Source: an uncultured virus (IMG/VR IMGVR_UViG_3300022178_000001)
Lineage: Duplodnaviria > Heunggongvirae > Uroviricota > Caudoviricetes
Strand: one strand, 5' to 3'
DNA: 35,729 nt
Virus record (IMG/VR): IMGVR_UViG_3300022178_000001
The notes beneath the pieces were generated by a model, which saw only the letters and a program-made list of their open reading frames with translations, was not told where the DNA came from and ran no database searches. Positions 3,564 to 35,379 of this stretch are shown here, piece by piece; positions within the stretch are counted from its first letter, which is position 1, and the number at the start of each line of letters is the position of its first letter. The translations under genes were made by a program, and so were the position numbers.

Positions 3564-3888
3564 CTTTCTCCACCTTCTTACTAGCAGTAAATCGCTTAGT
3601 AGGAGCAGGCTTAGCTGGAGCTTTTTTAGGGGCAGGCTTAGCTGGAGTCTCCGCAGGAGTATGAGCAATGCTAGCTTGATCATATACCAAAGGGTGTCTC
3701 CTAATAAGAGCAGTTAATACTCTTGCCCACCTACCATTAAAAATTTGAGCTAATTCTCTTCGTGTCATAGGACCGCTAGTCCCTAGGGCTAGATACTCGT
3801 CATACGTAATAGGTTTTGTTACCCCATGCTGAATAAAATGAGCATAGAGTTTGTCTAAGGACGCAGTTGTTTGTCGTCTAGTAGCCAT
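3553..3888 (-). CDS. Hypothetical protein with Lys/Pro/Ala-rich tail, between portal and protease
   Basis: 111 aa, tightly coupled to both neighbours; PAKPAPKKAPAKPAP tail. Confidence 0.7.
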   Translation of the reverse strand: MATRRQTTASLDKLYAHFIQHGVTKPITYDEYLALGTSGPMTRRELAQIFNGRWARVLTALIRRHPLVYDQASIAHTPAETPAKPAPKKAPAKPAPTKRFTASKKVEKDDE

Positions 3889-5465: not shown

Positions 5466-5494
5466 ATTATAACGTGTACCAGGTACATTGTCAA
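5466..5494 (-). promoter_or_regulatory. Sigma70 promoter for HNH-portal-capsid operon
   Basis: TTGACA-17 bp-TATAAT, exact consensus, AAAAATA tract upstream. Confidence 0.85.
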
Positions 5495-18600: not shown

Positions 18601-21600
18601 CTATTTAAAGCTACTTTCGTACCAAACTGGTCATTATATGAGCCGCCGGTCTCATTAGGATTTGTTATAATATGAGGAAATTGGGCCTCGCCAACAGCAG
18701 GAGACGGATTAACTATGTATACTACTCCGCTATTGATAGCTATGTTACCAGAATCAAAGGGAGCTCCGACTGCTAATCTTTCACCTCCAAGAGATATTGA
18801 ATGTCCAAATTGACTGTTATTGGGGCTATAAGACTGTACGGACCCAAATGTTGCTAGGCCGGGGTGTACTATTTGGCTAGTTATAGCATTAGTAGTACGA
18901 TTATAAAGATATACTGCTCCAGTTTGGTAGTTTAGTCCTGAATCTTCGAAAGGCGCACTAATCGCAAATAAATTACCATGTATTGCTAAGCTAAATCCAA
19001 ATCTATCATTTGCTGGGGAGGCGTTTATATTATTATTATTAATAGTTGCTTCTAGAAATCCAAGCGCATCATATACATATACTTTACCCGAGTCGATCTC
19101 GCCTGTCTCATCTTCTCTATCCGCCGATACGAGCAGCTTATCAGTACTTGCTGCAAGACTATAGGCAAAAAAGTCATTTGAAGCAGTACCAAAAGGAGTT
19201 GGATTTTCTTTGTACCAGGCAGGCTGAAAAGGAGACTGGCCTGTTCTACTAACAGAGCCATTCAAATTGATAGAAACTACCTCTCCCTGTAGAATGTCTC
19301 CTTCGGCTATAAAGTCTTCAATGCCTCCTGAGTGCCCGTTTCTAGGATACCATCTATTAATGGAGGAATCCCAGGTAAGTACTTGTAACTCTTTAGGAGG
19401 GTAAGAAATAACATTGACATCTACTAAATCGCCAATGAAAGCTGCGACAGCATCCCCTGTAGGTCCAGGAACCCAGTTACTGCCATCCCAAAATAAGCTT
19501 TCGCCAGCCTCAGGTACATTTCCTCCCGTAGTTGTATCTACATCTCCTAAAGAGCCTAAACTGATTGTATCAAGACTGGGAGACCCCGGTCTAAAGACGG
19601 AATCAATAGCATTCCATACTAGTGTTTCACCCTCTAAGGGATTATTACCAAGACTCGTAATGTCTACCTCATCTAAACCGCTTAAACTTGTTACTGTAAT
19701 GTTGGCAATGAGTTGAGGTTCCCACTTACTTGTAATAGAGTTATAAGCTATTACATCAGCCTCAGTTGGAGCCTGGGTTTGTAAATCTACATCTGTTAAA
19801 TCATCAAGTGAAGCAACCCTAGATACCGCCCCTGGAATCCATTTATCCTCCTCAAGATTATAAACTAAAACATCGTTACTTACTGGCGTAATCTCTTGTA
19901 AGTCTACATCTGTTAAATCATCAAGTATAAATACATTTGAAGTTCCAGTCTGTTGAGGTATCCATTTATCTAAAATAAAACTATAGACTAAAGAGTCTCC
20001 GTGCTCTAACCCCGCAGTATTAACATCACTTAACTCATTAAGAACAAAAGATCCTTGAGGAATATAATTCGCAAGAGCCCAATGAGTTCCAGTCCATTGT
20101 ATACTTTGACCAGGAGTAGGGGAGGCTACAGAAGTATCCGATAGCCCACCAAACGTAGTAATATTACTATATCCAATTGTTTTTGGAGACCATCTATTAT
20201 TTGCACTATCCCACACCAATCCTTGGTTATTAGCCGGAGGCTTAGAAACAGTATCCACATCTCGAATATCGTTTAAGTAGCTTACACCGGTCTCAGCGCT
20301 TACTACGTTACCTGTAATTAAAAGCTCAGTTTCTGCGGTAGCTTTACCCAAAACTCCGTAATCTGTTTCGGTAAGAGTTAAAAAGCCTCTACCATCTAAA
20401 TAATAGTTTTTATTAGTTTCCAGCCCTGATACAAATTTATTAACAGAACCTACTGTTGTAACAAGTACATCTTTATTATCTGCTACTAGTCTATCTTCTT
20501 CTACTATACCTACCCAATTGTCTGCATTACTAGTTAAGAATGAAGAACTTGAAAAAGTATGAATTTCTCCTACCCCTGCAATAGTTAAGCGAGGAGCTCC
20601 AATAATAGTATAGTCATTAGTTACTGCAAGACTGTAGCCCCAATTAATATTAGTGTCTGTAGGATTTTTAAACTCATTTAAGAATCTCCCAGTGTTTACA
20701 TCAAATATGTAAACAGTACCCCAGCTAGTGCCTATGGTTCTTTCATCAGTAGCTGATGCTATTATATAGTCGTTAGATATAGCTACTGTATTACCGAACT
20801 TATCTGCTCCTCCTGATATATTCCTATCTGGATTTGTTATAGTGTAGTTAAAGTCTCCGGTAACAAGGTTATATACAAATATTTTACCCCCTTCTGAATT
20901 AGGGGCTCCTACAACTAGCCTACCGCTAGTTGATATACCCATCGAATTACCAAAGTTCCCTTCAAAGTTATTCGGGCTGGTTAAGGTATAGAGTAATCCG
21001 GCTGTAGCTGCTTGGTATACTCTGACTTCATTATTTAAGGGATGGCCTATAGCTATGTAGCCAGAAGCACCTACAGCTACAGACTGGCCCCATCCTGTAA
21101 TAGAAGGAGTAGGGCTTTGAATAGAGTGTAGTAGGTTGCCTGTTGCAGGATTGAATATATAAACAACCCCCGTATTATTATCAGATAAATTTATAGGCTC
21201 TTCAGTTATAGCTGAGACAACAATATAATCGTTGGTAATTTGTACTCTATTACCAAATTGGTCATCTAGAGTGGACGTAGATAGATTAGGATTTTCAATA
21301 GTTTCTGATAATGTAAATCCAGGTAAATCATATATGTAAATTCGTCCAGCATTGCTATTATAGCCAGGAGCACCTACTACAAAGAAATTGTCTGAGATAG
21401 ATACTGATTCACCAAATTTTGTTGCAAGCCCTGGAGTTGGATTAGTAATGACCTGTAACAGTGAATTAGTAGAAGTATCGTATATTTCAATTTTACCCCC
21501 AGTAGTTGAGTTTTCAAACCCGGGAGCTCCAACAATATAGTAGTTATCTGAAACGTATACCGATTTTCCATAGTAGTCAGAAGCTGAAGAAGGAGTAGCT

Positions 21601-24600
21601 GTTGTGGTAAATAAGACTGATTCAGAACTAGAAACTTCTCCTACTTTCTCTACCTTTCCATCTGACCGAAGAGCAACTAAATCTCCTAGAACTAAGTCTT
21701 CGTGAGGTACATAGTGTGCCAAGCCTTGGCGCTCTGTAGGTCTCCACTGTCCTGTAGGCTCATCGTACTCTAAAGTATTTCTGCTCTGTGGAAGAACGGT
21801 TTGAAGGTCTACATCGCTTAAGACAGTTAGACCGATATCAATTACTGCCCCTTCTACGCTTCTAGTAATCCACATCTGTGTTTCTGGATCCCAGGATATA
21901 AAGTCCGCAGTATACGGATTTTCGAGGTTAACATCGTCTAGATTTTCTAGTTTAAGCCCAATTCCATAACCGTCATCATTATTAAATCGAGTTGTTATAA
22001 AACCACTACCGGTCCATTTTACAAATCTTGAAGTATTTGCTGTTCCAATAGGAACATCCGTAAAACCTCCAACAGGAAATTGATCTAACTCAAATACATT
22101 TAAGGCATTAAGATCTTCTAAGGCTCTTGGTATTTCAGCACTGTTCCAGCTACTACCGCTCCAAATCAGAGCATCTAATGTAGATGGGCTAGCGGCATTA
22201 ACATTTAATAAATCGCCAATCTCATCGGGAAAATTCTGAGCAGTCCACGCCGAACCATTATAAACAAGACCCTGGCCTGAAGTAGCGCTGAGTACACTAA
22301 CATTAGAAAGATCTGTAAGTTCTAAAGTGTTTACACTCTTGATAGTCTCAACTATATCTTTTTGTATCCACTGTCCGTTATTGCCTGCTAGTACCGAATT
22401 TTCTGCGACAGTACTATAATCAAAATCTTGTAAATCGTCAGCAGTCCAGGAGGGGGTTATGTTCTCCATTCGAATACCAAACTCTACATTATCTACATAT
22501 CGAAGAATTTGACCTGTATCACGATTGTCTATACGAACATCAGTTAGTGAATCAAGGGAAGTTGCAAGTTGAAGATCTTTAGTTGTCCATTTTTCAAGTT
22601 CTGCATCCCATACTAAAAGCTCTCCATCTCGAAGCAATCCTGGTTCAATAGCTGTATCTTTTAATTCATCTAAGCGAATATTTACTTCTATCGCTTTATC
22701 TACGCTTTCTCCGAAAGTGACAAAATCCCCGTGCTCTAAAACATCAATATTCTTGTTTACAGTAACATACAAAAGATTAATATCTATGCTTGTAACTTTA
22801 GGCGCATCAATAAGTCTTGGTGAGATTACATAATCACCAATTTTTACTTCGTCATCAATTTCGGACTGAACTCTTATAAGGGTCCCATTTGTTTGCCCCT
22901 TCGAGGCTTGATTTTCAAAGTATACTTCCTGTCCTACAGATAAAAGCTCTGCGGCGCGAGTGGGATTGGTAATATTAACAGAGTCAGTACTGCCGCCGTC
23001 AACCCCGTATATATAGACATACTCAACCTCACCAAGCTCATCGTATGCTATAATATTCATACCCGAGTCGACTAAGGGAAGACGATCCTCTGTGAAATTT
23101 ATTGTTACTCCGCCAGCACTAAAAGAAGCAATAGTCATAGGGCCTATGGGACCCGCGTCTTGGTCATCAAGAACTAAAGTGCCCTCCCCTCCTGTGGTCT
23201 TTACAGGTATAACTATATTAAAAGTTATTACTTCTCCGGGGATTACTTGAATTGGGTAGGATACTGTTAAACTTAAGCGATCTGCTGAAATACCCGTAAT
23301 AACAGGATATTCTGTAATGCTTGATACGTATACTGCAACGCCCGGTACCACGCCTTCGGGAAGAGCAGGTTGTGTAAGAATAGTATCATATTCTCCTGGA
23401 GACATAGTAGGAGATACTACTATTCCCTCTGTACCCGCTACGTTTTGAATAACAGGAGGGGTACCAAAAGCACAAACAGCTCCTTGAGGGATTGACACTG
23501 AGCGGGAAACCGTAACAGATAGGCGATCTTCAGCAATTGATAGTATAATTGGAAAAGGTTTCGGTAGTAAGGCAACGTTATCTACAATGTCACCTGGATG
23601 AACATTTCCTGAAATTACGTCGGTAAACCCAATTATTGTACTATTACTATAAGTTTGATCAACAATACCTTGCCCTGTCAAGATTGCGTCGTCTATACTA
23701 TCTCCCTCTTCAAGAGGAGGAATTACAATAGTATCGCCATCTTCTGTTTCAACAGTTCCCTCACTACTTCCTCCACCAGGAAGAGGCCCTACGGGGGAGC
23801 CCTCATTATTGCCACCACCACTACCGCCTCCGGAAACAGTACCAGGTACCCATTTCGCCGCCTCGCTATTCCATACTAGTGCCTGACCATTTATTGGAGC
23901 AGTAGCTGTTGTATCTACGTCGGAAAGACTGTTTAAGTTTCCTGCAATTGAAATAAAACTATTTACCCACTTTTGAGTGGTTCCGTTCCATACCAGTGCC
24001 TGACCTGTTATAGGGCTGGCCCCTATAACTGTATCTGGGAGCGCGGAGATTGGAGGTATTGAGGGCGCATTTGGTACCCATTTTTGACCCTGCCACTGCA
24101 AAAAATGGCCTGTGGATCTAGGGTACGATTGATCATCCATATCAACATCTAAAAGGTCTTCTAGTTTAGAGGTTAATTCGAGGGACTGAGACAACCATTG
24201 TCCGGCTTCGCTTGAATAAGTAAGCACATGTCTATCTTGCGGAATTAGGATATTAACGTCATTCAGCTCATTAATGCTTACGCCGATTTCGGCAATAATA
24301 TCATTAATAAGTTTTGGAACCCATTCTGTATTAAAGTCGTCCCATGCAAATAAATGAGAGTTTGGAATACCCGTATTGTAATTAGTAAAAGTATCTACAT
24401 CAGAAAGATTATTAATTTCTCCCTGTACCTCTGCGTAGGCTGGAACCCAATTTTGTTTATTAGTATTCCACTGCAAAAATTGTTGAGACTGAGGAGCTAC
24501 AGATTTTGTGTCTACGTCTTCAAGCTCATTTAAGCTTTTGGGTACACCACTAACATCTGGGTTTGGCTCAATATCTCCAGTAACTAATACTTTATTACCT

Positions 24601-26837
24601 GCAACAGCTATTCCTATAGCACCACTGCCCACATCACTAGTACGTAGAGCCCCTCTATATATACGAGAGTTATCAATATAAATTTTGGTTCCTGGTACTA
24701 GTACTCCCCCAATACCTCCTGCAAAAGAGGTTGCCTCGGAGGTTCCACCAAGAATAGTAATTTGTCCAGTATTCCACTCAGGAAAGCCACTCTGCGGGTT
24801 AATAGGAGAGCTAAAACTTTCGTCTGCTATGCCGAACCAATCTCTAATATTAGTTATAGGATTAGTACCAAAAGTAATAGCTTTAATACCGCCTGGCTGA
24901 GTTAGAGGAATAAGCATACGGCTTTCCTCTTTATTAGTTAGCAATACAGGCCATAGTTGGTCTGTAATCAAAAATTCAACGTTAGAGTCATCAGAAGCTT
25001 TAATTGCGTCGTCCGTATCTACAATAGGGTAGCCACCGAATTCGGAGAAAGTAAGAAGCGTAGAATGTAAAGATACATTCCCGAGTTGGTCTTCTCTTCC
25101 CCATACAATAGTAGCACCTCGGGTGTCTTGAGACCCTATAATTGCTGGATCTATATTACTCATCTTATAAGGAGTTTCTACAGAATCCTGGCCATTTTCA
25201 AAGGGATAGTGAGTGTATTGCGCGCCTGTATAGTTTGTGTTAGTAGTACCATTATTTGAGTTAGTAAATCGAGTTATCCATCCTTGAGCAGGTACAGTAT
25301 TTGTTCTTCTATAGGCTACCCAACATTCTGAACCACCCTTCATGAGAGTGACAAATGGGGTAGTCATATTATCCCAAATACCGCGCGGAGTTCTAAAAGT
25401 GAGGAACAAGCCACTGACGATAGTGACAAAAGACCACCCAGTACCAAGCTCGTCAATAAATACACTTACATGACGATTTCCGATACTATTGTAAACAGTA
25501 TGAATCTGATATACTTCTTTTGTCGTAAATGGAATAGGCGGCTGAAAAAGCAGGTCTAAGCCATCGAGTTCTGCCAATCTTCCCACACCAGTACCAAGAC
25601 TCTCTTGGTCCGCATAATGAAAGACAACATTTCCACTCGCTGTATCACAAGATACTGAATGAGTACCAATAGGGGAAGATAAGGAAAAGTCAATTGGAAA
25701 CTCAGACATAGTTACTGAGAAGCCTGCGAGAGTAATTACTCTTGCATACCCTATATTCGTAATTGAGTCTCTCCATGCAAATACTGTTCGTGTAGTTGCA
25801 ATATCGTAAGAGACTGAAAATTCTCCACCAATGTTTTCACCAAAGTAGTGTATAGTAGGGTCGAGAGTTATTTCTATGCCTTGGTCATCTAATTCCCCTA
25901 CTCGAAACTCTCCGTCTCCTGTAGTATCATTGATGTACGCAATAATATACTTTTCTTGGGCTGTGCACCATATTGAGTGAGATTGAGAGCCTACTGCGGC
26001 TCCGAGACTTATACTCTGCCCAAATTCAGGATCAGCATATTGAATTGGAAAAGCTACAGTTTTACTAGTATCCTGAAGTCCGATGGTAACAGCACGACCT
26101 GCACTAATAGTTTCTCCAGCCGCAGCATAGACTTCCATTTTTCCTACAGTAGATGGAGTTCCTGCTACCCAAGTGCCAGCATCATAAATTAAGCTTTCAC
26201 CATCAACAGGAGGATTAGTTGTAAGATCTACATCTTGTAAACCATCAAGGTTTAAAATTGGAGTTGCTGGTACCCATTCAGAGCCATTAAACGAAAGAAG
26301 ATCGTTTGTAATGGGAGGAGTAGTTGTAAGGTCTACATCTGTAAGGCCTGCAAGGTAAATATTACTAAGTGCGCCTGTAGTGACAGTCGTCCACATCTCG
26401 CTATCAGCATCGTAAGCAAGAATCTGACCGTCAGAAACGGAAGATACGTCCACATCTTGAAGAAAAGACATGGTAGGAACTGTAGGGATATACTCACCTA
26501 AGCCATCGTAAACTAATACGCCTGTATATGTTCCAGACGCAGAAACGTCTGTGAGGTCGCTGGTAGAATAAGGATTTGCTGCATGATATGCGGCAATGTA
26601 TGAAGTGATCGCAAATTCAGTAGGAACTACCTGCTCAGGAGTTTGAGAGGATAGAGTAACATCATTTGTAAAGGCGATTACATCTAGAACTCCATCTGTA
26701 AGAGTTCCAAAAGTGAGTGTACCAAACTGAGCGTCATCGTTAGCTTCATACTTATTTGCATTTAAATAAGTAAAGTTTTCATCGAGCTCATCAAAAGTAA
26801 GTTCAGTACCTTTTACAAGGCGGAGGGTTAAAGCCAT
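12630..26837 (-). CDS. Giant modular fibre/adhesin with FG-GAP beta-propellers and LxDLxDV repeats
   Basis: 4735 aa. N-terminal LRLVKGTELTFDELDENF fibre-type motif; dozens of L..L.DV...G..L.(W/Y)....W repeats; FG-x-VAI...VGAP...G.VY(I/V)F blades; five copies of a split W.G.A...GL..G..YY...G module. Confidence 0.85.
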   Translation of the reverse strand: MALTLRLVKGTELTFDELDENFTYLNANKYEANDDAQFGTLTFGTLTDGVLDVIAFTNDVTLSSQTPEQVVPTEFAITSYIAAYHAANPYSTSDLTDVSASGTYTGVLVYDGLGEYIPTVPTMSFLQDVDVSSVSDGQILAYDADSEMWTTVTTGALSNIYLAGLTDVDLTTTPPITNDLLSFNGSEWVPATPILNLDGLQDVDLTTNPPVDGESLIYDAGTWVAGTPSTVGKMEVYAAAGETISAGRAVTIGLQDTSKTVAFPIQYADPEFGQSISLGAAVGSQSHSIWCTAQEKYIIAYINDTTGDGEFRVGELDDQGIEITLDPTIHYFGENIGGEFSVSYDIATTRTVFAWRDSITNIGYARVITLAGFSVTMSEFPIDFSLSSPIGTHSVSCDTASGNVVFHYADQESLGTGVGRLAELDGLDLLFQPPIPFTTKEVYQIHTVYNSIGNRHVSVFIDELGTGWSFVTIVSGLFLTFRTPRGIWDNMTTPFVTLMKGGSECWVAYRRTNTVPAQGWITRFTNSNNGTTNTNYTGAQYTHYPFENGQDSVETPYKMSNIDPAIIGSQDTRGATIVWGREDQLGNVSLHSTLLTFSEFGGYPIVDTDDAIKASDDSNVEFLITDQLWPVLLTNKEESRMLIPLTQPGGIKAITFGTNPITNIRDWFGIADESFSSPINPQSGFPEWNTGQITILGGTSEATSFAGGIGGVLVPGTKIYIDNSRIYRGALRTSDVGSGAIGIAVAGNKVLVTGDIEPNPDVSGVPKSLNELEDVDTKSVAPQSQQFLQWNTNKQNWVPAYAEVQGEINNLSDVDTFTNYNTGIPNSHLFAWDDFNTEWVPKLINDIIAEIGVSINELNDVNILIPQDRHVLTYSSEAGQWLSQSLELTSKLEDLLDVDMDDQSYPRSTGHFLQWQGQKWVPNAPSIPPISALPDTVIGASPITGQALVWNGTTQKWVNSFISIAGNLNSLSDVDTTATAPINGQALVWNSEAAKWVPGTVSGGGSGGGNNEGSPVGPLPGGGSSEGTVETEDGDTIVIPPLEEGDSIDDAILTGQGIVDQTYSNSTIIGFTDVISGNVHPGDIVDNVALLPKPFPIILSIAEDRLSVTVSRSVSIPQGAVCAFGTPPVIQNVAGTEGIVVSPTMSPGEYDTILTQPALPEGVVPGVAVYVSSITEYPVITGISADRLSLTVSYPIQVIPGEVITFNIVIPVKTTGGEGTLVLDDQDAGPIGPMTIASFSAGGVTINFTEDRLPLVDSGMNIIAYDELGEVEYVYIYGVDGGSTDSVNITNPTRAAELLSVGQEVYFENQASKGQTNGTLIRVQSEIDDEVKIGDYVISPRLIDAPKVTSIDINLLYVTVNKNIDVLEHGDFVTFGESVDKAIEVNIRLDELKDTAIEPGLLRDGELLVWDAELEKWTTKDLQLATSLDSLTDVRIDNRDTGQILRYVDNVEFGIRMENITPSWTADDLQDFDYSTVAENSVLAGNNGQWIQKDIVETIKSVNTLELTDLSNVSVLSATSGQGLVYNGSAWTAQNFPDEIGDLLNVNAASPSTLDALIWSGSSWNSAEIPRALEDLNALNVFELDQFPVGGFTDVPIGTANTSRFVKWTGSGFITTRFNNDDGYGIGLKLENLDDVNLENPYTADFISWDPETQMWITRSVEGAVIDIGLTVLSDVDLQTVLPQSRNTLEYDEPTGQWRPTERQGLAHYVPHEDLVLGDLVALRSDGKVEKVGEVSSSESVLFTTTATPSSASDYYGKSVYVSDNYYIVGAPGFENSTTGGKIEIYDTSTNSLLQVITNPTPGLATKFGESVSISDNFFVVGAPGYNSNAGRIYIYDLPGFTLSETIENPNLSTSTLDDQFGNRVQITNDYIVVSAITEEPINLSDNNTGVVYIFNPATGNLLHSIQSPTPSITGWGQSVAVGASGYIAIGHPLNNEVRVYQAATAGLLYTLTSPNNFEGNFGNSMGISTSGRLVVGAPNSEGGKIFVYNLVTGDFNYTITNPDRNISGGADKFGNTVAISNDYIIASATDERTIGTSWGTVYIFDVNTGRFLNEFKNPTDTNINWGYSLAVTNDYTIIGAPRLTIAGVGEIHTFSSSSFLTSNADNWVGIVEEDRLVADNKDVLVTTVGSVNKFVSGLETNKNYYLDGRGFLTLTETDYGVLGKATAETELLITGNVVSAETGVSYLNDIRDVDTVSKPPANNQGLVWDSANNRWSPKTIGYSNITTFGGLSDTSVASPTPGQSIQWTGTHWALANYIPQGSFVLNELSDVNTAGLEHGDSLVYSFILDKWIPQQTGTSNVFILDDLTDVDLQEITPVSNDVLVYNLEEDKWIPGAVSRVASLDDLTDVDLQTQAPTEADVIAYNSITSKWEPQLIANITVTSLSGLDEVDITSLGNNPLEGETLVWNAIDSVFRPGSPSLDTISLGSLGDVDTTTGGNVPEAGESLFWDGSNWVPGPTGDAVAAFIGDLVDVNVISYPPKELQVLTWDSSINRWYPRNGHSGGIEDFIAEGDILQGEVVSINLNGSVSRTGQSPFQPAWYKENPTPFGTASNDFFAYSLAASTDKLLVSADREDETGEIDSGKVYVYDALGFLEATINNNNINASPANDRFGFSLAIHGNLFAISAPFEDSGLNYQTGAVYLYNRTTNAITSQIVHPGLATFGSVQSYSPNNSQFGHSISLGGERLAVGAPFDSGNIAINSGVVYIVNPSPAVGEAQFPHIITNPNETGGSYNDQFGTKVALNSTGQYLAVASKNEGPSSTKGGVYIFDISNEEIDPVQVAYIANPGLGGGFSYNFASALKWDQVYPNLLAIGSYDSDTDYPEGYDQGRVFIWDLNTLDFRTVITNPNSYNNPTTGDRFGWSVDMKEGKLLAGATYEEQGYVGGKYTNAGKAYLLDATSGQLEAIFSNPNIYGDSTNEQFGYSVAIGGQGFNDLYHVGTPYVRNTISSDFNSGAVVTFDSQITTNADAWIGIAFEDIADGEVGNVTLFGGVAKNLFGLEAGSNYYLQVDGGYTLTLSPYGIIGKALSPNTLLITGDVESNTADQVNVLNDLNDVTSVTPQVGDGLVWNGSGWVTGAVSGGVSNIGELDDVFLPVPNLLQSGQVLTWNGVAQSWVNAATGSSNVAIINDLTDVDLDTIPPLEDQVLQFDGATWRPTDLPEGQRITGVASENITEGSIVLYGNTGQFKNVEISIGAFLASIPASVPSNYALFGSVITHQGDYYAVSAPGASAQGVGSYFGVVTVYDAVTDAPVRTFYPPREGYQVIANVSNQYFGESISIYGDYLAVGAPKGTINGAVQTGIVYVFRISTGSLVYIIPCPFNQNANDNFGASVSIDDTAILIGSPGYDSPTSFNTGRAYLYDFNDLDGYSYDVEEEEWPIIPPSKIFENSNDEGTPAGDAFGSVVSITPSSVIISAPSEDTGGTLSTGRIYIRNRVTTASIATLVNPNIDSEGFGTVLAYWPEKIIVGAPGYNANQGIVYIFSATTGALLHTIQSPEAIGDRFGVSVAIGEYQIVIGSETGKEGYPDSGKIHVYSNAAPPVYYGGFDNPGYNVSPSGERMGTAVAITPAGKAIAGAPYSDLSAGSQQNPAIDRGAVHLFDVSESAISSDAGEWIGIAAGTMTQGETGEVVILGGLTPFVYSGLVPATYYYANFDGTLTTNTTDYGLVGIATNSQQLLILGSISGVATMPDLSDVDFSSGLTPSHALTWNGQFWEGKFVSTITSITELDDVSLIDTPPEDTQALVFESLSGKWKATDIGYSNVFAFNDLNDVSISNVAVGQSLSWNGSQWVPETFSQVSTLDELTDVNTNVFKTDRDILEWDGEALEWTVARNVFGNFINIEAEGSIAAGEPVYITNNSKVAQIRGTEEITGTAVFENDFFQDISLSGYGRSIDIYEDLIVAGNPEFDLPGITNTGKAFVYSASSGELLQVLYPPTSYTYQQFGNTVATNGDLVAIIAAENPYANGKGKVHIYKGTTGEYLRSIEHPDPSRTTSNGFGYHQKSIDFQGNFLLVGDKNYRDPISNASLGRAFLFNAYTGNLVHTFEHPNSSAVNSRSFGTQVAMLDDGSKILIYDVLQDGLNSATAYIYDYAYDLVSTIEVPHYNADTIAINSNYLIVASTYSGYLYIHSLLDGTLLYTSGSAYLDYGQKSLSANEKTLVVTYGSNKGFRVFDIASRILLASETTSSVGSCASLFKTRLVYSTGYQAITYNLNDISISSKAADWVGISEGAYLAGDTTTIITGSGFVSALSGLIPGANYYVAVDGTLFPGATGFGKIGRAVSETELLVSSNTSNIDLDSDSTASLIAGIGDLTDVDTFTLFPTDGQYLQYNSVTSTWSPGDVSLPSLTDISLADIENNDLLLYSEGIWSNGTLATTNLSDIDTTVAPTASQTLIWNENTSKWEAGIPERALDSLSNMGSSVSTPTTGQILVYNTIGDQWSAVDNEFSLDGLTDVNLEGVTDNQFLQYNSTSSEWEPGTVATAVSELTDVDLTGVTEGQYLVYNDQDKWVPTTIEFAAALTDLTDVNAVGATQGQGLIYDTGTNKFELAIVGTSNVDTLEDLSNVSIPTTPNNGDVLKYNGNTDTWEATPTPSPAVVYATRNSFPAIGNLGDLSFAQDTGVLYVWEGTIWYNLKRTNAFYLVRAGQFTGPLTGTQLFQPQQTITLHEIRAQVDQPSGASLIFSVMRSGAEVQQFVIPPAAPFIEAAFTAGVVVGPADEITVDIISGPGTNLSIKFIYS

Positions 26838-27583: not shown

Positions 27584-27612
27584 ATTATACAGTAGGAGAT
27601 ATCCGTTGTCAA
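27584..27612 (-). promoter_or_regulatory. Sigma70 promoter of terS-adhesin operon
   Basis: TTGACA-17 bp-TATAAT, exact consensus. Confidence 0.85.
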
Positions 27613-29557: not shown

Positions 29558-29756
29558 GATCGCAATAGGTTGCGGTTGGATTGGGGCGGCTTGTATGTCA
29601 GTCGCCCCTTTCATTATCGACACGCCAGCAGGTAAGGCTCTGGCAATTGTAGGGCTTGGACTCTTAACGGTGCAGGCTATTTGCAACCGGACAATAAATC
29701 TGGTATGCTTAAATCTCATTTCAATACTTGGATTTTCTTATGCACTTTATTTTTGA
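29550..29756 (+). CDS. Small multi-TM membrane protein
   Basis: 68 aa, 2-3 hydrophobic stretches, overlaps both neighbours. Confidence 0.6.
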   Translation: MDKIAIGCGWIGAACMSVAPFIIDTPAGKALAIVGLGLLTVQAICNRTINLVCLNLISILGFSYALYF

Positions 29757-30201
29757 TTTAGATGAAACGGTTATCGACTCAAGCCACCGCCAAGGTGAAA
29801 CGCTTGCGGAATGGATAGCCTTAAACACTCCCGAAAATGTGGCTAAGGATACGCTTTTGCCTCTGGCCGACCAGATGCAAAAAGTTTATGATGCTGGTCA
29901 CACCGTGACGGTTTGCACTAGCAGGGTATTATCTGACCACGATTTTGATAGCTTTCGAGCCTTGGGATTACGATTCGATAACATGCTTTCACGCAGTCTA
30001 TTAGATGGCAATGAAAACCCAGGATCTCTAAAATTGAGATTGTTGCAAGGCCTTGCAAAACGTCAAGGTATATCATGGGCGCGCTTTTGTCGAACGGCTA
30101 TGATGTTCGATGATAATCAAGACGTTATTGATACGCTAAAAAACAATAGCCTCCGCGTTATTAATCCGGTAAACTACAACTCACGAAATAAGGCGGTATA
30201 A
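29740..30201 (+). CDS. dmp: HAD-family deoxynucleoside-5'-monophosphatase (T5 Dmp-like)
   Basis: FDLDETVIDSSHR, DTLLPL, VCTSR, K, MFDDN; matches recalled T5 Dmp (WDLDGTIINSFHR, DTLLPL, ICTAR). Confidence 0.8.
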   Translation: MHFIFDLDETVIDSSHRQGETLAEWIALNTPENVAKDTLLPLADQMQKVYDAGHTVTVCTSRVLSDHDFDSFRALGLRFDNMLSRSLLDGNENPGSLKLRLLQGLAKRQGISWARFCRTAMMFDDNQDVIDTLKNNSLRVINPVNYNSRNKAV

Positions 30202-30205
30202 AAAA

Positions 30206-30937
30206 ATGACTAAACAATATTTTGCTACAATCGACAGCGAGACAACTCAAAACGAAAAAGTTGCGGATTTTGCTTGCGTTATCACCGACCGGAAAGGCCG
30301 CATTCATGCACAGTGCGCTGTTTTGGTTGACGGTATTTTTACCGATTCCGAAAATCATCCGCTCTTTTTTGATAAATCAGCGCCTCGCGATGCTCTATGG
30401 TCTAAGGCTTCGGCGGATCGTCGTTATGCCAAATATTCTAAAATGGTCGCAGATGGCTCGCGGATGGTCGCCTCGGTCGCGGCGATTAATCGCTGGCTTG
30501 AACGTGCCGTCGGAAAATATGACCCGATTTTAACCGCGTATAATCTTGCTTTCGATGCTGGCAAAATGTCAAATACTGGCATTGATCATACTATTTTTTC
30601 TCGCCGCTTTTGCCTCTGGCAGACGGCTTGCGTTAAATGGGCTTCAACAAATCAATACAAGAATTTTGTGATGCAAAACCATGCCTTTAATGCGCCCACA
30701 AAATTCGGCAACATGACCTATAAAACCAATGCCGAGGTGATGGCGCGATTCGTTACAGGTCAAGACTTGCCAGATGAACCCCACACGGCGTTGGAAGATA
30801 TTATCGATTATGAATTGCCAATTTTAAATGCGCTGGTAAAGCGCGGCAAAATGCAAGATATTATCGATTCGGGTGTGGGCTATAGCTGGAGAGATTACCA
30901 AGCAAAAAATCATTTTACTGCAAAAAAGGTTGCATGA
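30206..30937 (+). CDS. DEDDh 3'-5' exonuclease
   Basis: ExoI IDSETT, ExoII AYNLAFD, ExoIII HTALED. Confidence 0.88.
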   Translation: MTKQYFATIDSETTQNEKVADFACVITDRKGRIHAQCAVLVDGIFTDSENHPLFFDKSAPRDALWSKASADRRYAKYSKMVADGSRMVASVAAINRWLERAVGKYDPILTAYNLAFDAGKMSNTGIDHTIFSRRFCLWQTACVKWASTNQYKNFVMQNHAFNAPTKFGNMTYKTNAEVMARFVTGQDLPDEPHTALEDIIDYELPILNALVKRGKMQDIIDSGVGYSWRDYQAKNHFTAKKVA

Positions 30938-30938
30938 T

Positions 30939-31046
30939 ATGAAAACGAAAATTCTAGCACTTGCGTTTAAACTTTATATTGCCTATTCCATCACCGCCGA
31001 TTTTCTGTTAATCTGTGGCATTATCTACTTAATCATTGGGGCTTAA
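30939..31046 (+). CDS. 35-aa membrane peptide
   Basis: MKTKILALAFKLYIAYSITADFLLICGIIYLIIGA; AAGGT RBS; exactly fills the intergenic gap. Confidence 0.6.
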   Translation: MKTKILALAFKLYIAYSITADFLLICGIIYLIIGA

Positions 31047-31047
31047 C

Positions 31048-31662
31048 ATGAATCAAATTGAGACTTTACAGGCTGAGTTAAATGAGATTGTCGAAGGGTT
31101 GACAGGGCCGGTTGCGGTTCTGTTAGAAGGGCGCGACACTGCCGGAAAATCCAGCACGATTCGCGAGGCCACGCATTATTTGCCCATGAATCGCTTTTCT
31201 GTTCATTTGAGCAAAAAGCCTAGCAAGCGCACCATGAAAAATTGGCTTGCTTATTGGGCGCACAAAATGCCACGCGGAAATCAAATCGTTTTTTATGATC
31301 GCTCATGGTATTCTCGGGCGATGGTTCAGCGCTTGAATGGCTGGTGCTCACCTAAGCAATACGACAATTTTATCAAATCACACAAAATCTGGGAACGTGA
31401 TCAGAATGTCACTATGATAAAAATGTGGTTATCGATTACTGAAGCTGAACAACACCGGCGAATTGAAAAGCGCAAAAAATCACCCTTGACCTATTGGAAA
31501 TTTTCGCCCAATGATGAGCGCGCGCTTTCCTACTATGATGAGATGACCGCGCTTAAAAATGCTTGCATCGATGACGATTGGATTCATGTTGACTACAATA
31601 ATAAAAAGACTGGTATTGAGAATTTTTTGCGAGAATTAATATTTGCATTAGGAGAACAATAA
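31048..31662 (+). CDS. ppk2: Polyphosphate kinase 2
   Basis: Walker A EGRDTAGK, Walker B YDRSWY, KMWLSI...EQ..R, PL..WKFSP.D. Confidence 0.93.
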   Translation: MNQIETLQAELNEIVEGLTGPVAVLLEGRDTAGKSSTIREATHYLPMNRFSVHLSKKPSKRTMKNWLAYWAHKMPRGNQIVFYDRSWYSRAMVQRLNGWCSPKQYDNFIKSHKIWERDQNVTMIKMWLSITEAEQHRRIEKRKKSPLTYWKFSPNDERALSYYDEMTALKNACIDDDWIHVDYNNKKTGIENFLRELIFALGEQ

Positions 31663-32293: not shown

Positions 32294-32347
32294 TTGACAA
32301 CCCAAACAAAAGGTATTATAATATATCCCATGTTAAGGAGAATTATA
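32294..32347 (+). promoter_or_regulatory. Early sigma70 promoter/RBS cassette copy 1
   Basis: TTGACA-17-TATAAT...TAAGGAG; 32304-32347 identical to 32630-32673. Confidence 0.9.
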
Positions 32348-32840: not shown

Positions 32841-33281
32841 ATGAATACAATGGACAAGATGGATTTGTGTTTATTAACTATTGATGTAGTTAACGATTAC
32901 TTCCAAAAAAGCGTAGATAGATGGCAGAAAGAACAACAGTTCGAAGTGCCTCGCATTAATTTAGCAATATCTGAAATGGATGCTGATAGATATGCAGAGC
33001 TAGATACAGTAGATGCATTTCACGAATATACAGTTACACTGAATAAGTTGTGGATGCTTGAGAAAGATTTAGACACAGAACTTCTAGTAGGTATTGTAGC
33101 GCATGAATGTGTACATGCCTTCCAACTAACTAGAGAAGCTATAGAAGAGTTTCCTAGTAGTGGTAAAAGTGGTAATCCTTATTGGTTTTGTGAGTATGAG
33201 ATAGAGGCACGTGGGTATGAGAGAGCATTCGTATGGTTAGTAAATAAAAAAGTTAAGAAGCTTAGAAAAAAAAGTTCTTGA
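32841..33281 (+). CDS. Zincin-like (HExxH) metallopeptidase
   Basis: IVAHECVH...Q...PYW...YEIEAR. Confidence 0.75.
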   Translation: MNTMDKMDLCLLTIDVVNDYFQKSVDRWQKEQQFEVPRINLAISEMDADRYAELDTVDAFHEYTVTLNKLWMLEKDLDTELLVGIVAHECVHAFQLTREAIEEFPSSGKSGNPYWFCEYEIEARGYERAFVWLVNKKVKKLRKKSS

Positions 33282-33306
33282 CATTTAACTAAAATGCTAC
33301 TATAAT
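33278..33306 (+). promoter_or_regulatory. Sigma70 promoter
   Basis: TTGACA-17-TATAAT. Confidence 0.88.
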
Positions 33307-34356: not shown

Positions 34357-34575
34357 ATGGCTGTTAAATTTAAACCAAATGAAATTATTCTGGATAGAGC
34401 TACGAAAGTAAAGACAAAGAAAGTTTTTCCTATAGCAGGAGTTAAAGCTTCTGAGCTCCTAGAACTATGTGCAAAACCTGAATCTGACTTACGAAGAGGG
34501 GAACGAAAAACCCGAGCAAAAGCACGAGTAGAACTAGCAAAACGAGGTATTGATTTCTCTAGGTCTGTAGTGTAA
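34357..34575 (+). CDS. Small basic hypothetical protein
   Basis: 72 aa, TAAGGAG RBS. Confidence 0.75.
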   Translation: MAVKFKPNEIILDRATKVKTKKVFPIAGVKASELLELCAKPESDLRRGERKTRAKARVELAKRGIDFSRSVV

Positions 34576-34634
34576 CTACGTGAACACGCTAGTTTCCAAA
34601 ACTAGAAATTGCGGTGCAACCCCGTACGGACCTG
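34561..34634 (+). tRNA. tRNA-Trp (anticodon CCA), 3' CCA not encoded
   Basis: Acceptor AGGTCTG/CGGACCT, D stem GTGT/ACAC, anticodon stem CTAGT/ACTAG with loop TTCCAAA, T stem TGCGG/CCGTA; A1-U72 and G73 Trp identity elements. Confidence 0.85.
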
Positions 34635-34673
34635 CCTATTTTTTAATTTTTTAACCTTTGGTTAAAATATTTC

Positions 34674-34702
34674 TTGACAAATATGGTTAGTCGAAGTATA
34701 AT
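34674..34702 (+). promoter_or_regulatory. Sigma70 promoter for ncRNA
   Basis: TTGACA-17-TATAAT. Confidence 0.88.
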
Positions 34703-34708
34703 ATATAC

Positions 34709-35085
34709 TTATTCAAAAGATAGTTCCATGCCTGAAATATGGTTGGATGGTCACTCGGAAGACTATAAAAACCGTATCTTGTTTATGGGCTTTATAAACA
34801 GGACGTCTGCCCCTTAAGGATTGGGGACTCGATAATGTATTAATCCCTAAGTCTTGCAGGACACTTTGAGTCCCTAAGGAGTTATGCATCACTGGAAACC
34901 TCCTACAATTAAAAAAGTTCCGGGTGGGTTACTCCTATTATAGCCCTACCAAGTGTGACGGGAGTAGCAAGTATGATCGTAGGATGGGGTTCATACAACC
35001 CTCTCGTAAAGAGAGGAGATAGACTCGATAAATTGCTAGTAATTGCTAAGAGTCTTTAAAACAATAGCTCATTGAACTATGTTTA
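34709..35085 (+). ncRNA. Large structured non-coding RNA, family unrecognised
   Basis: Own promoter and terminator, no ORF of 60 aa or more, end-to-end helix, at least seven internal stems, two loop-mediated long-range pairings. Confidence 0.75.
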
Positions 35086-35086
35086 T

Positions 35087-35125
35087 GGCCCTCACTGGAG
35101 TTTTCTCCTCTGAGGGTCTTTTTTT
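35087..35125 (+). terminator. Intrinsic terminator
   Basis: GGCCCTCA-ct-GGAG-TTTT-CTCC-tc-TGAGGGTC followed by T7. Confidence 0.9.
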
Positions 35126-35149
35126 ATGCCACCTATCTGTAAAAAGTTC

Positions 35150-35178
35150 TTGACATTCAATCCAAAATCTCTTATAAT
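35150..35178 (+). promoter_or_regulatory. Sigma70 promoter
   Basis: TTGACA-17-TATAAT. Confidence 0.88.
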
Positions 35179-35214
35179 TCATTTTTCACCTGAAAAATAT
35201 TTTTGGAAAATTTT

Positions 35215-35379
35215 ATGACTACGAAATATTCATACTCCTATGAGGAGCTATTTGAAGATATTCCTGGGGACGATGAGCATATTGCTTTTATTGTACCCGC
35301 AGAGATTTTGGATGAGGTAGCTGACTCTTCTTTTAAAGTTAAAGTAGAGAAAGGTATTGTAGTAATCCAAATCACATAA
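35215..35379 (+). CDS. 54-aa AbrB/SpoVT-like protein
   Basis: MTTKYSYSYEELFEDIPGDDEHIAFIVPAEILDE...FKVKVEKGIVVIQIT; I.P.EI...VE...+VI pattern. Confidence 0.55.
   Translation: MTTKYSYSYEELFEDIPGDDEHIAFIVPAEILDEVADSSFKVKVEKGIVVIQIT

What the first reader, a model, noticed from the sequence alone, without database searches (positions are those of the whole stretch)
34674..35125. Stand-alone ~370-415 nt pseudoknotted non-coding RNA next to the tRNA
Seen: an exact sigma70 promoter and a strong terminator enclose a region with no substantial ORF. The ends pair (ATAGTTCCATG 34720 / CATTGAACTAT 35070, 10 of 11). Internal stems: ATATGGTT/AACCGTAT plus ATGGTC/GACTAT; CTTGTTTAT/ATAAACAGG; TTGGGGACTC/GAGTCCCTAA; GGAG/CTCC; GTTACTCCT/GGGAGTAGC; GTATGA/TCATAC; CCTCTC/GAGAGG; AGACTC/GAGTCT. 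The whole first loop ACTCGGAA (34753-34760) pairs with the linker TTCCGGGT (34918-34925), and loop CCTAC (34945) can kiss loop GTAGG (34979). Frequent G-U pairs argue for RNA-level structure. Known: large ornate phage RNAs such as GOLLD and ROOL occur near tRNAs. I cannot match this one to a known family, so it is a candidate new ribozyme or scaffold RNA.
Basis: partly seen in the sequence, partly recalled or inferred. Interest (0 to 1): 0.88.

Follow-up and report, generated by a model that had tools for sequence, protein, structure and literature searches.

The report
New structured RNA in uncultured phage
An uncultured T5-like phage carries a separately transcribed RNA of about 415 bases that folds into a conserved chain of hairpins and matches no known RNA family, so it is probably a new, narrowly distributed non-coding RNA whose job is still unknown.

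Summary
The observation largely holds. A perfect TTGACA-17-TATAAT promoter (34674-34702) and a -21 kcal/mol terminator hairpin with a U7 tail (35087-35126) bracket about 415 nt with no conserved ORF. Rfam 15 and ARAGORN find only the neighbouring tRNA-Trp.

I found six distinct versions in two clades of one uncultured T5-like phage group. On their alignment, a curated structure of 12 helices plus one pseudoknot has 11 of 86 pairs changed on both sides (3.3 expected from shuffles, 0 of 500 reach it). G-U cells outnumber A-C cells 51 to 9, which favours a plus-strand RNA.

- The "ends pair" helix is not conserved and competes with a co-varying local hairpin.
- The 10-bp stem TTGGGGACTC/GAGTCCCTAA is specific to one clade.
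- The first pseudoknot co-varies, but so does a rival local pseudoknot that uses the same linker.
- The CCTAC/GTAGG kiss is not kept; a different register between the same loops is invariant.
- tRNA adjacency is incidental. The sister phage has no tRNA, only a permuted tmRNA.

Verdict: a real stand-alone structured ncRNA of a new, very narrow family. Its function is not shown. My best guess is an abundant early RNA particle that binds a protein.

The parts
34561..34636 (+). Neighbouring tRNA-Trp(CCA). It overlaps the last 15 nt of the 72-aa ORF at 34357-34575. It is not part of the RNA.
   Evidence: ARAGORN; Rfam tRNA 50.1 bits. It is absent next to the sister-clade copy.
34674..34702 (+). Sigma70-type promoter, TTGACA-17 nt-TATAAT. 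The inferred start is near 34708-34710.
   Evidence: 12 of 12 match. It is one of 6 perfect sites in the window against 0.06 expected. Both hexamers are kept in all homologues whose 5' flank is held.
34708..35126 (+). Inferred primary transcript, about 415-419 nt. The ends are inferred from promoter and terminator and have not been mapped.
   Evidence: MFE z = -3.67. There is no conserved ORF.
34737..34777 (+). Hairpin H1. The outer helix is 34737-44/34770-77 and the inner helix 34747-52/34761-66. The 8-nt loop ACUCGGAA (34753-34760) is the 5' strand of pseudoknot a.
   Evidence: -14.2 kcal/mol, z = -3.78. The outer helix has 2 pairs changed on both sides. The inner core GGUC/GACU is invariant.
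34778..34802 (+). Hairpin H2, with a 9-bp stem and the invariant loop GGGCUU.
   Evidence: z = -5.68. One pair is changed on both sides in the MAFFT alignment. By eye, four basal pairs are all exchanged in the sister clade.
34808..34856 (+). Variable domain. Each clade has a different hairpin here: UUGGGGA/UCCCUAA in this clade.
   Evidence: 43% identity between clades across this part; folds.
34859..34873 (+). Hairpin B, GGAC/GUCC, with the loop ACUnnGA.
   Evidence: 2 of 4 pairs are changed on both sides and 100% of cells are paired.
34877..34904 (+). Hairpin C, AGGAG/CUCCU. The 18-nt loop holds CACUGGAA, the 5' strand of rival pseudoknot b.
   Evidence: One pair changed on both sides in MAFFT columns. 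By eye the stem becomes UCCAG/CUGGA in the sister clade.
34905..34926 (+). A-rich linker followed by UUCCGGGUG, the shared 3' strand of pseudoknots a and b.
   Evidence: Pseudoknot a: 95.7% of cells paired, 1 double change. Pseudoknot b: 100% paired, 1 double change plus 3 wobble changes. Cognate loop-linker duplexes are more stable than cross-clade ones.
34928..34968 (+). Hairpin D, with a 9-bp stem plus 4 weak pairs. The loop holds the invariant UAGCCCUACC.
   Evidence: 100% paired in 5 distinct sequences on the model-guided alignment; -15.2 kcal/mol.
34971..34996 (+). Hairpin E, GUAUGA/UCAUAC. The loop holds the invariant AGGAUGGGG.
   Evidence: A-U changes to U-A at the inner pair. The D-loop x E-loop duplex is -11.1 to -12.9 kcal/mol in three versions.
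35000..35016 (+). Hairpin X, CCUCUC/GAGAGG, of variable length.
   Evidence: U-A changes to C-G in L045. The sister clade has a longer hairpin on the same CCU/AGG base.
35021..35055 (+). Hairpin F, AGACUC/GAGUCU. Its 23-nt loop carries UGCUA twice, 10 nt apart.
   Evidence: A-U changes to G-C in 2 of 6 sequences. The same loop on a different stem (GUAUACUC/GAGUAUAC) occurs in the otherwise unrelated contigs L072/L074.
35064..35080 (+). Local hairpin G, AUAGCUC/GAACUAU.
   Evidence: 2 pairs changed on both sides in the MAFFT alignment (3 by eye). It is weak in the window itself, at -0.9 kcal/mol.
35087..35126 (+). Intrinsic terminator: an 8 + 4 bp hairpin and a U7 tail.
   Evidence: -21.2 kcal/mol, z = -5.97. 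91% identical between clades.
35150..35178 (+). The next perfect promoter, which serves the downstream small genes. It shows that the RNA is a separate unit.
   Evidence: 12 of 12 match; conserved in all homologues.

Best explanation
The region is an independent gene for a structured non-coding RNA of about 415 nt. It founds a new, narrowly distributed family in one group of uncultured T5-like phages. The host is probably an alphaproteobacterium, judged from the sister phage's tmRNA type.

Shown here: host-type consensus promoter, intrinsic terminator, no conserved ORF, a chain of about ten hairpins (H1a/b, H2, a variable hairpin, B, C, D, E, X, F, G, terminator) with compensatory changes, invariant loops, and one linker that co-varies with two alternative loop partners.

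Inferred: the RNA is made in large amounts by the host RNA polymerase at the start of infection. It folds into a compact particle held by loop-loop and loop-linker contacts. It acts in trans through its invariant loops, most likely by binding and titrating or scaffolding a protein (host or phage). It probably does not act as an mRNA, a catalyst or an antisense regulator.

I put the 'real new structured ncRNA gene' part at about 0.8 and the protein-binding-particle mechanism at about 0.3. The single figure given is a compromise between the two.
For: - Promoter and terminator.
- No known family: Rfam 15 gives only the tRNA at gathering score. At E<=10 there are four hits, all far below cut-off: 14-23 bits against 60-285 needed. 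The sister copy also has no hit at E<=0.01. ARAGORN finds no tmRNA.
- Homologues: 6 distinct sequences in 2 clades.
- Curated structure of 86 pairs: 93.7% of cells paired. 11 pairs are changed on both sides, against 3.3 +/- 1.3 in shuffles (0 of 500 reach it) and 1-4 in slid controls.
- Hairpins D and E are 100% paired, with 2 double changes, on the model-guided alignment.
- Not coding: 12 of 13 indels between clades are not multiples of three, and ORFs are not conserved on either strand.
- Strand: 51 G-U cells against 9 A-C cells in the helices.
- Linker co-evolution: cognate loop-linker duplexes (-7.0 to -10.6 kcal/mol) beat cross-clade ones (-2.2 to -6.1) for both alternative partners.
- Accessory nature: the RNA is absent from the syntenic spot in 23 related loci and from 4 related contigs of 44-60 kb.
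Against: - There are only two clades, and four of the six sequences are close to each other. Most covariation therefore rests on one comparison, and no R-scape-grade statistic is possible.
- The structure was derived from these same sequences, so the percentage paired and the G-U excess are biased upwards.
- Minus-strand folding is almost as stable (z = -3.34), and two homologues have weak z-scores (-2.44 and -1.92).
- I could obtain no expression data.
- No partner protein, repeated protein-binding motif or RNP gene was found nearby. GGA motifs are not enriched: 12 against 8.6 +/- 2.0, with 87 of 1000 shuffles reaching 12. Pfam and PHROGs matches to the neighbouring genes give no RNA-binding candidate.
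- The proposed tertiary contacts use invariant bases, so they carry no covariation support.
Confidence: 0.6

Rival explanations
1. The RNA self-assembles into an RNA-only particle, a homo-oligomeric cage or scaffold of the kind reported for ROOL and GOLLD. Intermolecular loop-linker and loop-loop pairing would hold it together.
For: One linker is complementary to two different hairpin loops, and both co-vary with it. One molecule cannot satisfy both pairings at once, but an oligomer could. The loops are invariant and complementary: H2 x D is -9.2 and D x E is -11.1 to -12.9 kcal/mol. The context is a phage next to tRNA-like genes, as described for ROOL/GOLLD (abstracts of 10.1101/2024.12.08.627333 and PMC5737381, seen in the search listing only).
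Against: There is no homology to ROOL or GOLLD. The RNA is smaller than I recall those RNAs being. The self-complementary CCUUAAGG is present in one clade only.
Confidence: 0.12
2. The RNA is a regulator that works by base-pairing or as a conformational switch. It could be an antisense or sponge RNA for phage or host transcripts, or a leader whose terminator read-through tunes the downstream early genes.
For: The two mutually exclusive, co-varying pairings of the linker look like a bistable switch. The terminator lies 24 nt upstream of the -35 element of the next operon.
Against: The downstream genes have their own perfect, conserved promoter, so a leader function is not needed. About 400 nt with ten conserved hairpins is far more than base-pairing regulators need. 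No target was identified. The T-box and riboswitch models do not match.
Confidence: 0.12
3. The RNA is a ribozyme, for example one that processes the phage's tRNA or tmRNA precursors.
For: The size, the pseudoknot and the invariant unpaired nucleotides are compatible with a catalytic core. Within this phage group the RNA was seen only in lineages that also carry a tRNA-like gene within about 2 kb: tRNA-Trp here and a permuted tmRNA in the sister. Four related partial contigs without the RNA have neither.
Against: No RNase P, group I, group II or small-ribozyme model matches even at E<=10. The co-occurrence rests on 2 lineages and 4 incomplete contigs. It is explained just as well by a shared early-gene module, since the 98-aa neighbour is shared by the same lineages only. 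Host enzymes normally process such precursors.
Confidence: 0.06
4. It is a DNA-level element, such as a replication origin or a protein-binding site cluster. The promoter would serve transcriptional activation and the repeats would act as iterons.
For: It is an ORF-free stretch of about 400 bp with a promoter. AATTGCTA occurs twice exactly 10 bp apart inside an inverted repeat. Both strands fold about equally well.
Against: Compensatory changes occur in many separate helices, and there is a strong excess of G-U over A-C (51 to 9). This points to selection on one RNA strand. A strong terminator is conserved. There are no multiple iterons: AATTGCTA occurs 4 times in the window against 2.55 expected.
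Confidence: 0.05
5. It is an mRNA for a small protein: the 34-aa GTG ORF at 34955-35059, kept as a 42-aa TTG ORF in the sister clade.
For: An ORF stays open in the same frame at both ends in both clades.
Against: There is no Shine-Dalgarno sequence, and the starts are GTG and TTG. The interior is frameshifted between the clades by +10 and -1 nt. 5 of 34 residues differ between two close variants, at sites that are compensatory stem changes. An open frame of this length is common by chance in 400 nt.
Confidence: 0.03

Closest known systems
ROOL (RF03087) and GOLLD (RF01998) large ornate RNAs
   Same: They are large, highly structured RNAs of unknown function encoded by phages or prophages, often beside tRNA genes, and are transcribed as separate units. 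This comes from the abstracts of PMC5737381 and 10.1101/2024.12.08.627333, which I saw only in the listing.
   Different: There is no sequence or structure match at E<=10. This RNA is smaller, at about 415 nt. It occurs in a T5-like phage group rather than in the lineages I recall for those families. tRNA adjacency is not conserved.
tmRNA and bacterial RNase P RNA
   Same: The size is similar (350-400 nt). They contain pseudoknots and sit in an RNA-gene neighbourhood. The sister phage carries a real permuted tmRNA about 1.75 kb downstream.
   Different: ARAGORN and every Rfam tmRNA and RNase P model fail to match. I saw no tRNA-like domain, tag reading frame or P4-type conserved core in the sequence.
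Abundant protein-titrating RNAs (CsrB/RsmZ, 6S RNA; adenovirus VA RNA as a viral analogue). These comparisons are recalled, not taken from any call.
   Same: They are stand-alone genes with a strong promoter and a terminator. They form chains of hairpins with conserved loops and act as folded RNA rather than as a message.
   Different: There is no repeated loop motif and GGA is not enriched. No Rfam match was found. The probable alphaproteobacterial host class mostly lacks CsrA, as far as I recall. No partner is known.
Small stable RNAs next to the tRNA genes of T4 and T5 (recalled)
   Same: They are phage-encoded stable RNAs of unknown function in tRNA regions of large lytic phages.
   Different: As I recall them, those RNAs are about 100-140 nt. 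I retrieved no sequence to compare. My literature search for T5 stable RNAs found 0 papers.

Membership tests
ROOL / GOLLD | A match to the family covariance model (Rfam RF03087 / RF01998) | tested here: not met
   cmscan of 34500-35300 at E<=10 lists neither family. The whole window at gathering score gives only the tRNA.
tmRNA (standard or permuted) | A tRNA-like acceptor/T-arm domain ending in CCA, plus a tag reading frame | tested here: not met
   ARAGORN finds no tmRNA in the window and the Rfam tmRNA models give nothing. The same tools do find the sister phage's tmRNA: RF04321 at 107.8 bits.
Bacterial RNase P RNA | A match to RF00010/RF00011, with the conserved P4 core | tested here: not met
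   No hit at E<=10.
Group I / group II introns | A match to RF00028/RF00029, and insertion within a host gene with splice sites | tested here: not met
   No hit at E<=10. The element has its own promoter and terminator and lies between genes.
T-box or other riboswitch leaders | A match to the family model, with a terminator controlling a downstream gene that lacks its own promoter | tested here: not met
   No hit. The downstream genes have a perfect, conserved promoter of their own.
CsrB/RsmZ-type CsrA sponges | Many GGA motifs, enriched and exposed in hairpin loops | tested here: not met
   12 GGA against 8.6 +/- 2.0 in dinucleotide shuffles, with 87 of 1000 shuffles reaching 12. No Rfam CsrB, CsrC or Rsm hit.
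New structured ncRNA family (this report) | A conserved secondary structure with compensatory changes in independent lineages | tested here: met
   11 of 86 pairs are changed on both sides, against 3.3 in shuffles (0 of 500) and 1-4 in slid controls. This rests on 6 sequences in only 2 clades.
New structured ncRNA family (this report) | Expression as a discrete, stable RNA | not testable with these tools
The ends are inferred from the promoter and terminator only.

The most novel reading that the evidence does not exclude
This is a new class of ornate phage RNA whose core is a co-evolving three-way pairing. One linker can pair either with a distant 5' hairpin loop or with an adjacent loop to form an H-type pseudoknot. 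The RNA would then be a bistable or self-assembling particle that the phage produces from its strongest early promoter, for example to neutralise a host RNA-binding defence or to take over part of the host's RNA machinery. One of its hairpins (F) would be a portable module shared with unrelated phages.
Probability: 0.15. Interest if true: 0.8.

Novelty: new variant of a known kind. Interest (0 to 1): 0.55.

Why it matters
Large structured RNAs of phages are few, and none has a known function. Each new family with a tractable size (about 415 nt), a clear transcription unit and a testable architecture is a possible entry point. This one is small enough for chemical probing and cryo-EM. It sits in an accessory early-gene module, the usual location of host-takeover and counter-defence functions. 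It also offers a concrete hypothesis to test: two alternative, co-varying pairings of one linker. The value is limited by the very narrow distribution, the absence of a cultured host and the lack of any functional clue.

Tried and rejected
KNOWN FAMILIES
- I ran Rfam at gathering score and at E<=10 on the window, on the sister locus and on the whole sister genome. The RNA was never hit.

WIDENING THE FAMILY
- blastn against 50,697 deposited phages with the whole RNA and with two conserved cores gave nothing meaningful.
- Five motif scans of viral contigs returned only the two lineages plus chance matches: 3 of 6, 1 of 4, 0 of 5, 7 of 10 and 19 of 22 stretches were unrelated (checked).
- One metagenome scan returned 31 stretches. 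Nine were homologues by nhmmer. I treated the other 22 as chance: I read the flanks of all 22, inspected 2 in full as coding or unrelated sequence, and 18 had no Rfam hit.
- One scan of bacterial genomes for the hairpin-F motif gave 1 chance hit.
- A covariance model of the 3' core matched only 1 of 5 related phage records.

HYPOTHESES TESTED AND DROPPED
- CsrA-sponge idea: no GGA enrichment.
- Codon-like loops pairing with the neighbouring tRNA-Trp anticodon: dropped because the sister phage has no tRNA.
- Tetraloop-receptor motifs (UAUGG/CCUAAG): not conserved between the clades.
- A T-arm-like reading of GGGGUUCAUACAACCC: it conflicts with the co-varying hairpin E and is absent from the sister clade.

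OTHER DEAD ENDS
- Neighbouring proteins offered no RNP partner, and the two flanking small proteins have no relatives in deposited phages.
- Earlier findings of this scan: nothing on record.
- Literature searches on T5 stable RNAs, T5-like non-coding RNAs and large phage RNAs found no description of this RNA.
Full report
WHAT IS AT THE COORDINATES

The sequence shows a 12-of-12 sigma70-type promoter at 34674-34702. It is one of six perfect TTGACA-N16-18-TATAAT sites in the window, where 0.06 are expected by chance. A second perfect promoter lies at 35150-35178.

Between them, 35087-35118 forms an 8+4-bp hairpin followed by seven U residues. It folds at -21.2 kcal/mol with z = -5.97. The simple terminator scan did not list it. 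The inferred transcript runs from about 34708 to 35126, roughly 415-419 nt.

ARAGORN finds one gene in the window, tRNA-Trp(CCA) at 34561-34636, directly upstream. It finds no tmRNA.

The longest plus-strand ORF inside the transcript is 34 aa. It starts with GTG and has no Shine-Dalgarno sequence.

The full transcript folds at -128.2 kcal/mol with z = -3.67, and 0 of 100 shuffles are as stable. The reverse strand is almost as good, at z = -3.34.

KNOWN FAMILIES

Rfam 15 at gathering score finds only the tRNA in the whole window.

At E<=10 on 34500-35300 there are four further hits, all far below their cut-offs:
- snoR13: 22.7 bits against 60
- MicX: 17.1 against 75, on the minus strand
- mir-1012: 15.4 against 70
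- GEBRO: 14.1 against 284.7

No model for RNase P, tmRNA, group I or II introns, T-box, 6S, CsrB, ROOL or GOLLD appears. The sister-clade copy is also unmatched at E<=0.01.

THE PHAGE

The window carries a structural module on the minus strand: adaptor, a 718-aa protein matching both head protease and major head protein families, portal, and large and small terminase. Small early-type genes lie on the plus strand from about 29.2 kb.

The large terminase is 47-51% identical to those of T5-like Vibrio and Pectobacterium phages. Like T5 as I recall it, this phage uses consensus host promoters.

HOMOLOGUES

Deposited phage genomes hold nothing similar.

Among 27 loci fetched through the flanking genes, the RNA is present only in copies identical to the window and in one diverged lineage, L026 = L027.

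The 23 loci that encode the upstream 72-aa protein (72-100% identity), apart from the window's own contig, lack both the RNA and the tRNA at that position and run straight into other genes.

A metagenome motif scan gave 31 stretches, of which 9 are homologues by nhmmer. I read the flanks of the other 22 as chance matches, inspected 2 of them in full as coding or unrelated sequence, and 18 had no Rfam family.

In all there are six distinct sequences: the window, L044, L046, L045, L049 (cut by a contig end) and L026. They fall into two clades. Further motif scans and a covariance model of the 3' core added no member. The family is real but very narrow.

STRUCTURE AND COVARIATION

Identity between the clades is uneven:

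| Segment | Identity, window vs L026 |
|---|---|
| 5' leader | 39% |
| H1-H2 | 62% |
| Variable domain | 43% |
| Linker-D-E | 73% |
| Hairpin X | 26% |
| F-G | 77% |
| Terminator | 91% |

12 of the 13 indels between the clades are not multiples of three.

It gives 93.7% paired cells. 11 pairs are changed on both sides, against 3.3 +/- 1.3 in shuffles (0 of 500 reach it) and 1-4 when partners are slid by 1-3 columns.

Double changes fall in H1a (2), pseudoknot a (1), H2 (1), B (2), C (1), X (1), F (1) and G (2). With a model-guided alignment, D and E are 100% paired in five distinct sequences and have one double change each. That alignment leans towards the structure.

By eye, the basal four pairs of H2 and three pairs of C are fully exchanged in the sister clade.

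In the helices, G-U cells outnumber A-C cells 51 to 9. 17 pairs show G-U in at least one sequence and 6 show A-C, out of 86. This favours the plus strand as RNA, with the caveat that the structure was derived on that strand.

ORFs on either strand are not conserved. The 59-aa minus-strand ORF of the window is absent (no ORF of 20 aa or more) from 2 of the 6 sequences, and a third (L046) keeps only a 20-aa remnant.

(a) The end-to-end helix ATAGTTCCATG/CATTGAACTAT forms in the window (10 of 11 pairs). Its 3' strand is also the 3' strand of local hairpin G, which changes on both sides at two pairs in the MAFFT alignment and three by eye: AUAGCUC/GAACUAU here, AUAGUUU/AAACUGU in L045, ACAGC/GCUGU in L026. 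The long-range helix acquires a G.G mismatch in L026 and is 81.8% paired overall. Hairpin G is weak in the window itself, at -0.9 kcal/mol, so the long-range helix may still form in this lineage.

(b) TTGGGGACTC/GAGTCCCTAA exists only in the window clade, with 6 of 10 pairs broken in L026. It excludes hairpin B, which co-varies. The same 5' strand can instead pair with a nearer UCCCUAA, which leaves B free.

(c) The loop ACUCGGAA does pair with UUCCGGGU, and the changes are all compatible: G-C to G-U, A-U to G-U, and C-G to G-U in L026. But the loop of hairpin C (CACUGGAA here, GUCGG in L026) pairs with the same linker equally well, at 100% of cells with one double and three wobble changes. 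This second pairing would give a classical H-type pseudoknot crossed by the conserved A-rich linker. Duplex energies show that both loops have followed the linker:

| Loop x linker | Cognate, window clade | Cognate, L026 | Cross-clade |
|---|---|---|---|
| H1b loop | -10.6 | -7.0 | -5.4 / -5.9 |
| C loop | -8.3 | -8.3 | -2.2 / -6.1 |

(Energies in kcal/mol.) The two pairings exclude each other within one molecule.

(d) The CCUAC x GUAGG kiss is broken in L026 (A.A). The invariant parts of the same two loops, GCCCUACC and GGAUGGGG(U), can form 8 pairs with one bulge, at -11.1 to -12.9 kcal/mol in three versions. The H2 loop GGGCU can also pair with AGCCC of the D loop, at -9.2 kcal/mol in all three. 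These contacts use invariant bases, so they are candidates only.

(e) tRNA adjacency is incidental. The sister phage record (95.8 kb, estimated 98% complete) has no tRNA gene at all. It has only a permuted, alphaproteobacterial-type tmRNA about 1.75 kb downstream of its copy of the RNA.

A weak co-occurrence remains. Both lineages with the RNA carry one tRNA-like gene nearby, and four related but incomplete contigs without the RNA carry none. The RNA, the 54-58-aa gene and the 98-aa gene form a module shared only by these lineages, which explains the co-occurrence just as well.

A PORTABLE MODULE

Hairpin F has a 23-nt loop with UGCUA twice, 10 nt apart. The same loop (34 nt, 91% identical) sits on a different, longer stem (GUAUACUC/GAGUAUAC) in an intergenic region of two contigs that share nothing else with this phage. 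No Rfam family covers it there. It was not found in bacterial genomes: one chance hit without a stem. This suggests that F is a self-contained recognition element.

WHAT IT MOST LIKELY DOES

Shown:
- It is an independent transcription unit with the strongest possible host-type promoter and a strong terminator.
- It has a conserved multi-hairpin fold with invariant loops.
- It has accessory, module-like distribution among early genes.

Inferred: it is an abundant early RNA that acts as a folded particle through its loops. I favour binding of a protein, by titration or scaffolding, at about 0.3. The architecture is hairpins presenting invariant loops, one of them portable, and early accessory phage genes usually serve host takeover or counter-defence.

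I found no partner and no repeated loop motif. GGA is not enriched (12 against 8.6 +/- 2.0). The neighbouring proteins give no hint.

The rivals are listed in their own section with odds: a self-assembling RNA-only particle, a switch or base-pairing regulator, a ribozyme, a DNA-level element and a small-protein mRNA.

COMPARISON AND NOVELTY

In genomic context the RNA resembles ROOL and GOLLD: large phage RNAs next to tRNA-like genes with unknown function. I saw those papers only as listings and abstract openings. It is not a member of either family.

It is a new family of a known kind, supported by modest comparative evidence. My literature searches found no description of it. I could not see journal content outside the held library.

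LIMITS

There is no cultured host. The full-length model was too long to build here.

Noticed in passing
L026:4491-4871 (= L080:12126-12506, minus strand): The sister phage encodes a circularly permuted (two-piece) tmRNA with the tag ANDVYEQELALAA. It scores 107.8 bits on RF04321 and 67.3 bits on the alphaproteobacterial tmRNA model. This points to an alphaproteobacterial host. A marine methylophage with a two-piece tmRNA is in print (PMC9004378; I saw only the listing and the start of the abstract).
   Followed up: partly
window 34357-34636: tRNA-Trp overlaps the last 15 nt of the 72-aa ORF. In 21 of the 23 related loci, which lack the tRNA, the protein match stops at residue 65 or earlier. 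It looks as if inserting the tRNA rewrote the C-terminus.
   Followed up: partly
window 5466-5494(-), 27584-27612(-), 32294-32322, 33278-33306, 34674-34702, 35150-35178: There are six perfect TTGACA-N17-TATAAT promoters against 0.06 expected. This is a T5-like reliance on consensus host promoters, including two on the structural-gene strand.
   Followed up: partly
L025:3650-4373 (just beyond the window's right end): This is a second ORF-free region of about 700 nt. L025:3918-4199 is 76% identical to L026:4007-4286, and the region contains a perfect 8-bp hairpin, GUGACGCC/GGCGUCAC. Rfam finds nothing. It may hold another non-coding RNA. In the sister phage the tmRNA gene follows this region.
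   Followed up: partly
window 12630-26837 (-): A single 4735-aa ORF with FG-GAP repeats (Pfam E = 2.6e-76, six stretches). It is probably a giant fibre or adhesin, and it is unusually large for a phage of about 97 kb.
   Followed up: partly
window 29728-30201, 30206-30937, 31036-31662: The early region encodes a polynucleotide-kinase-like protein (PHROG 415), an adjacent 243-aa protein of unknown function, and a polyphosphate kinase 2 (PPK2, Pfam E = 9e-37).
   Followed up: no
L072:780-835 and L074:780-835: The hairpin-F loop (AAAUUGCUAGUAAUUGCUA) recurs on a different stem inside a larger inverted repeat, between small membrane-protein genes of an unrelated, lower-GC phage contig.
   Followed up: partly
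L049 and L067 (the two ends of one 98.6-kb metagenome contig): The same contig carries the RNA locus at both ends. One end is identical to the window and the other is a variant that scores lower against it (nhmmer 346.5 bits over the shorter stretch held, against 503.1 for the identical copy). This suggests a circularly closed or terminally redundant assembly of about 97.6 kb built from mixed strains.
   Followed up: no
window 1527-3683 (-): A 718-aa ORF matches both head-maturation-protease and major-head-protein PHROGs, so it may be a protease-capsid fusion.
   Followed up: no
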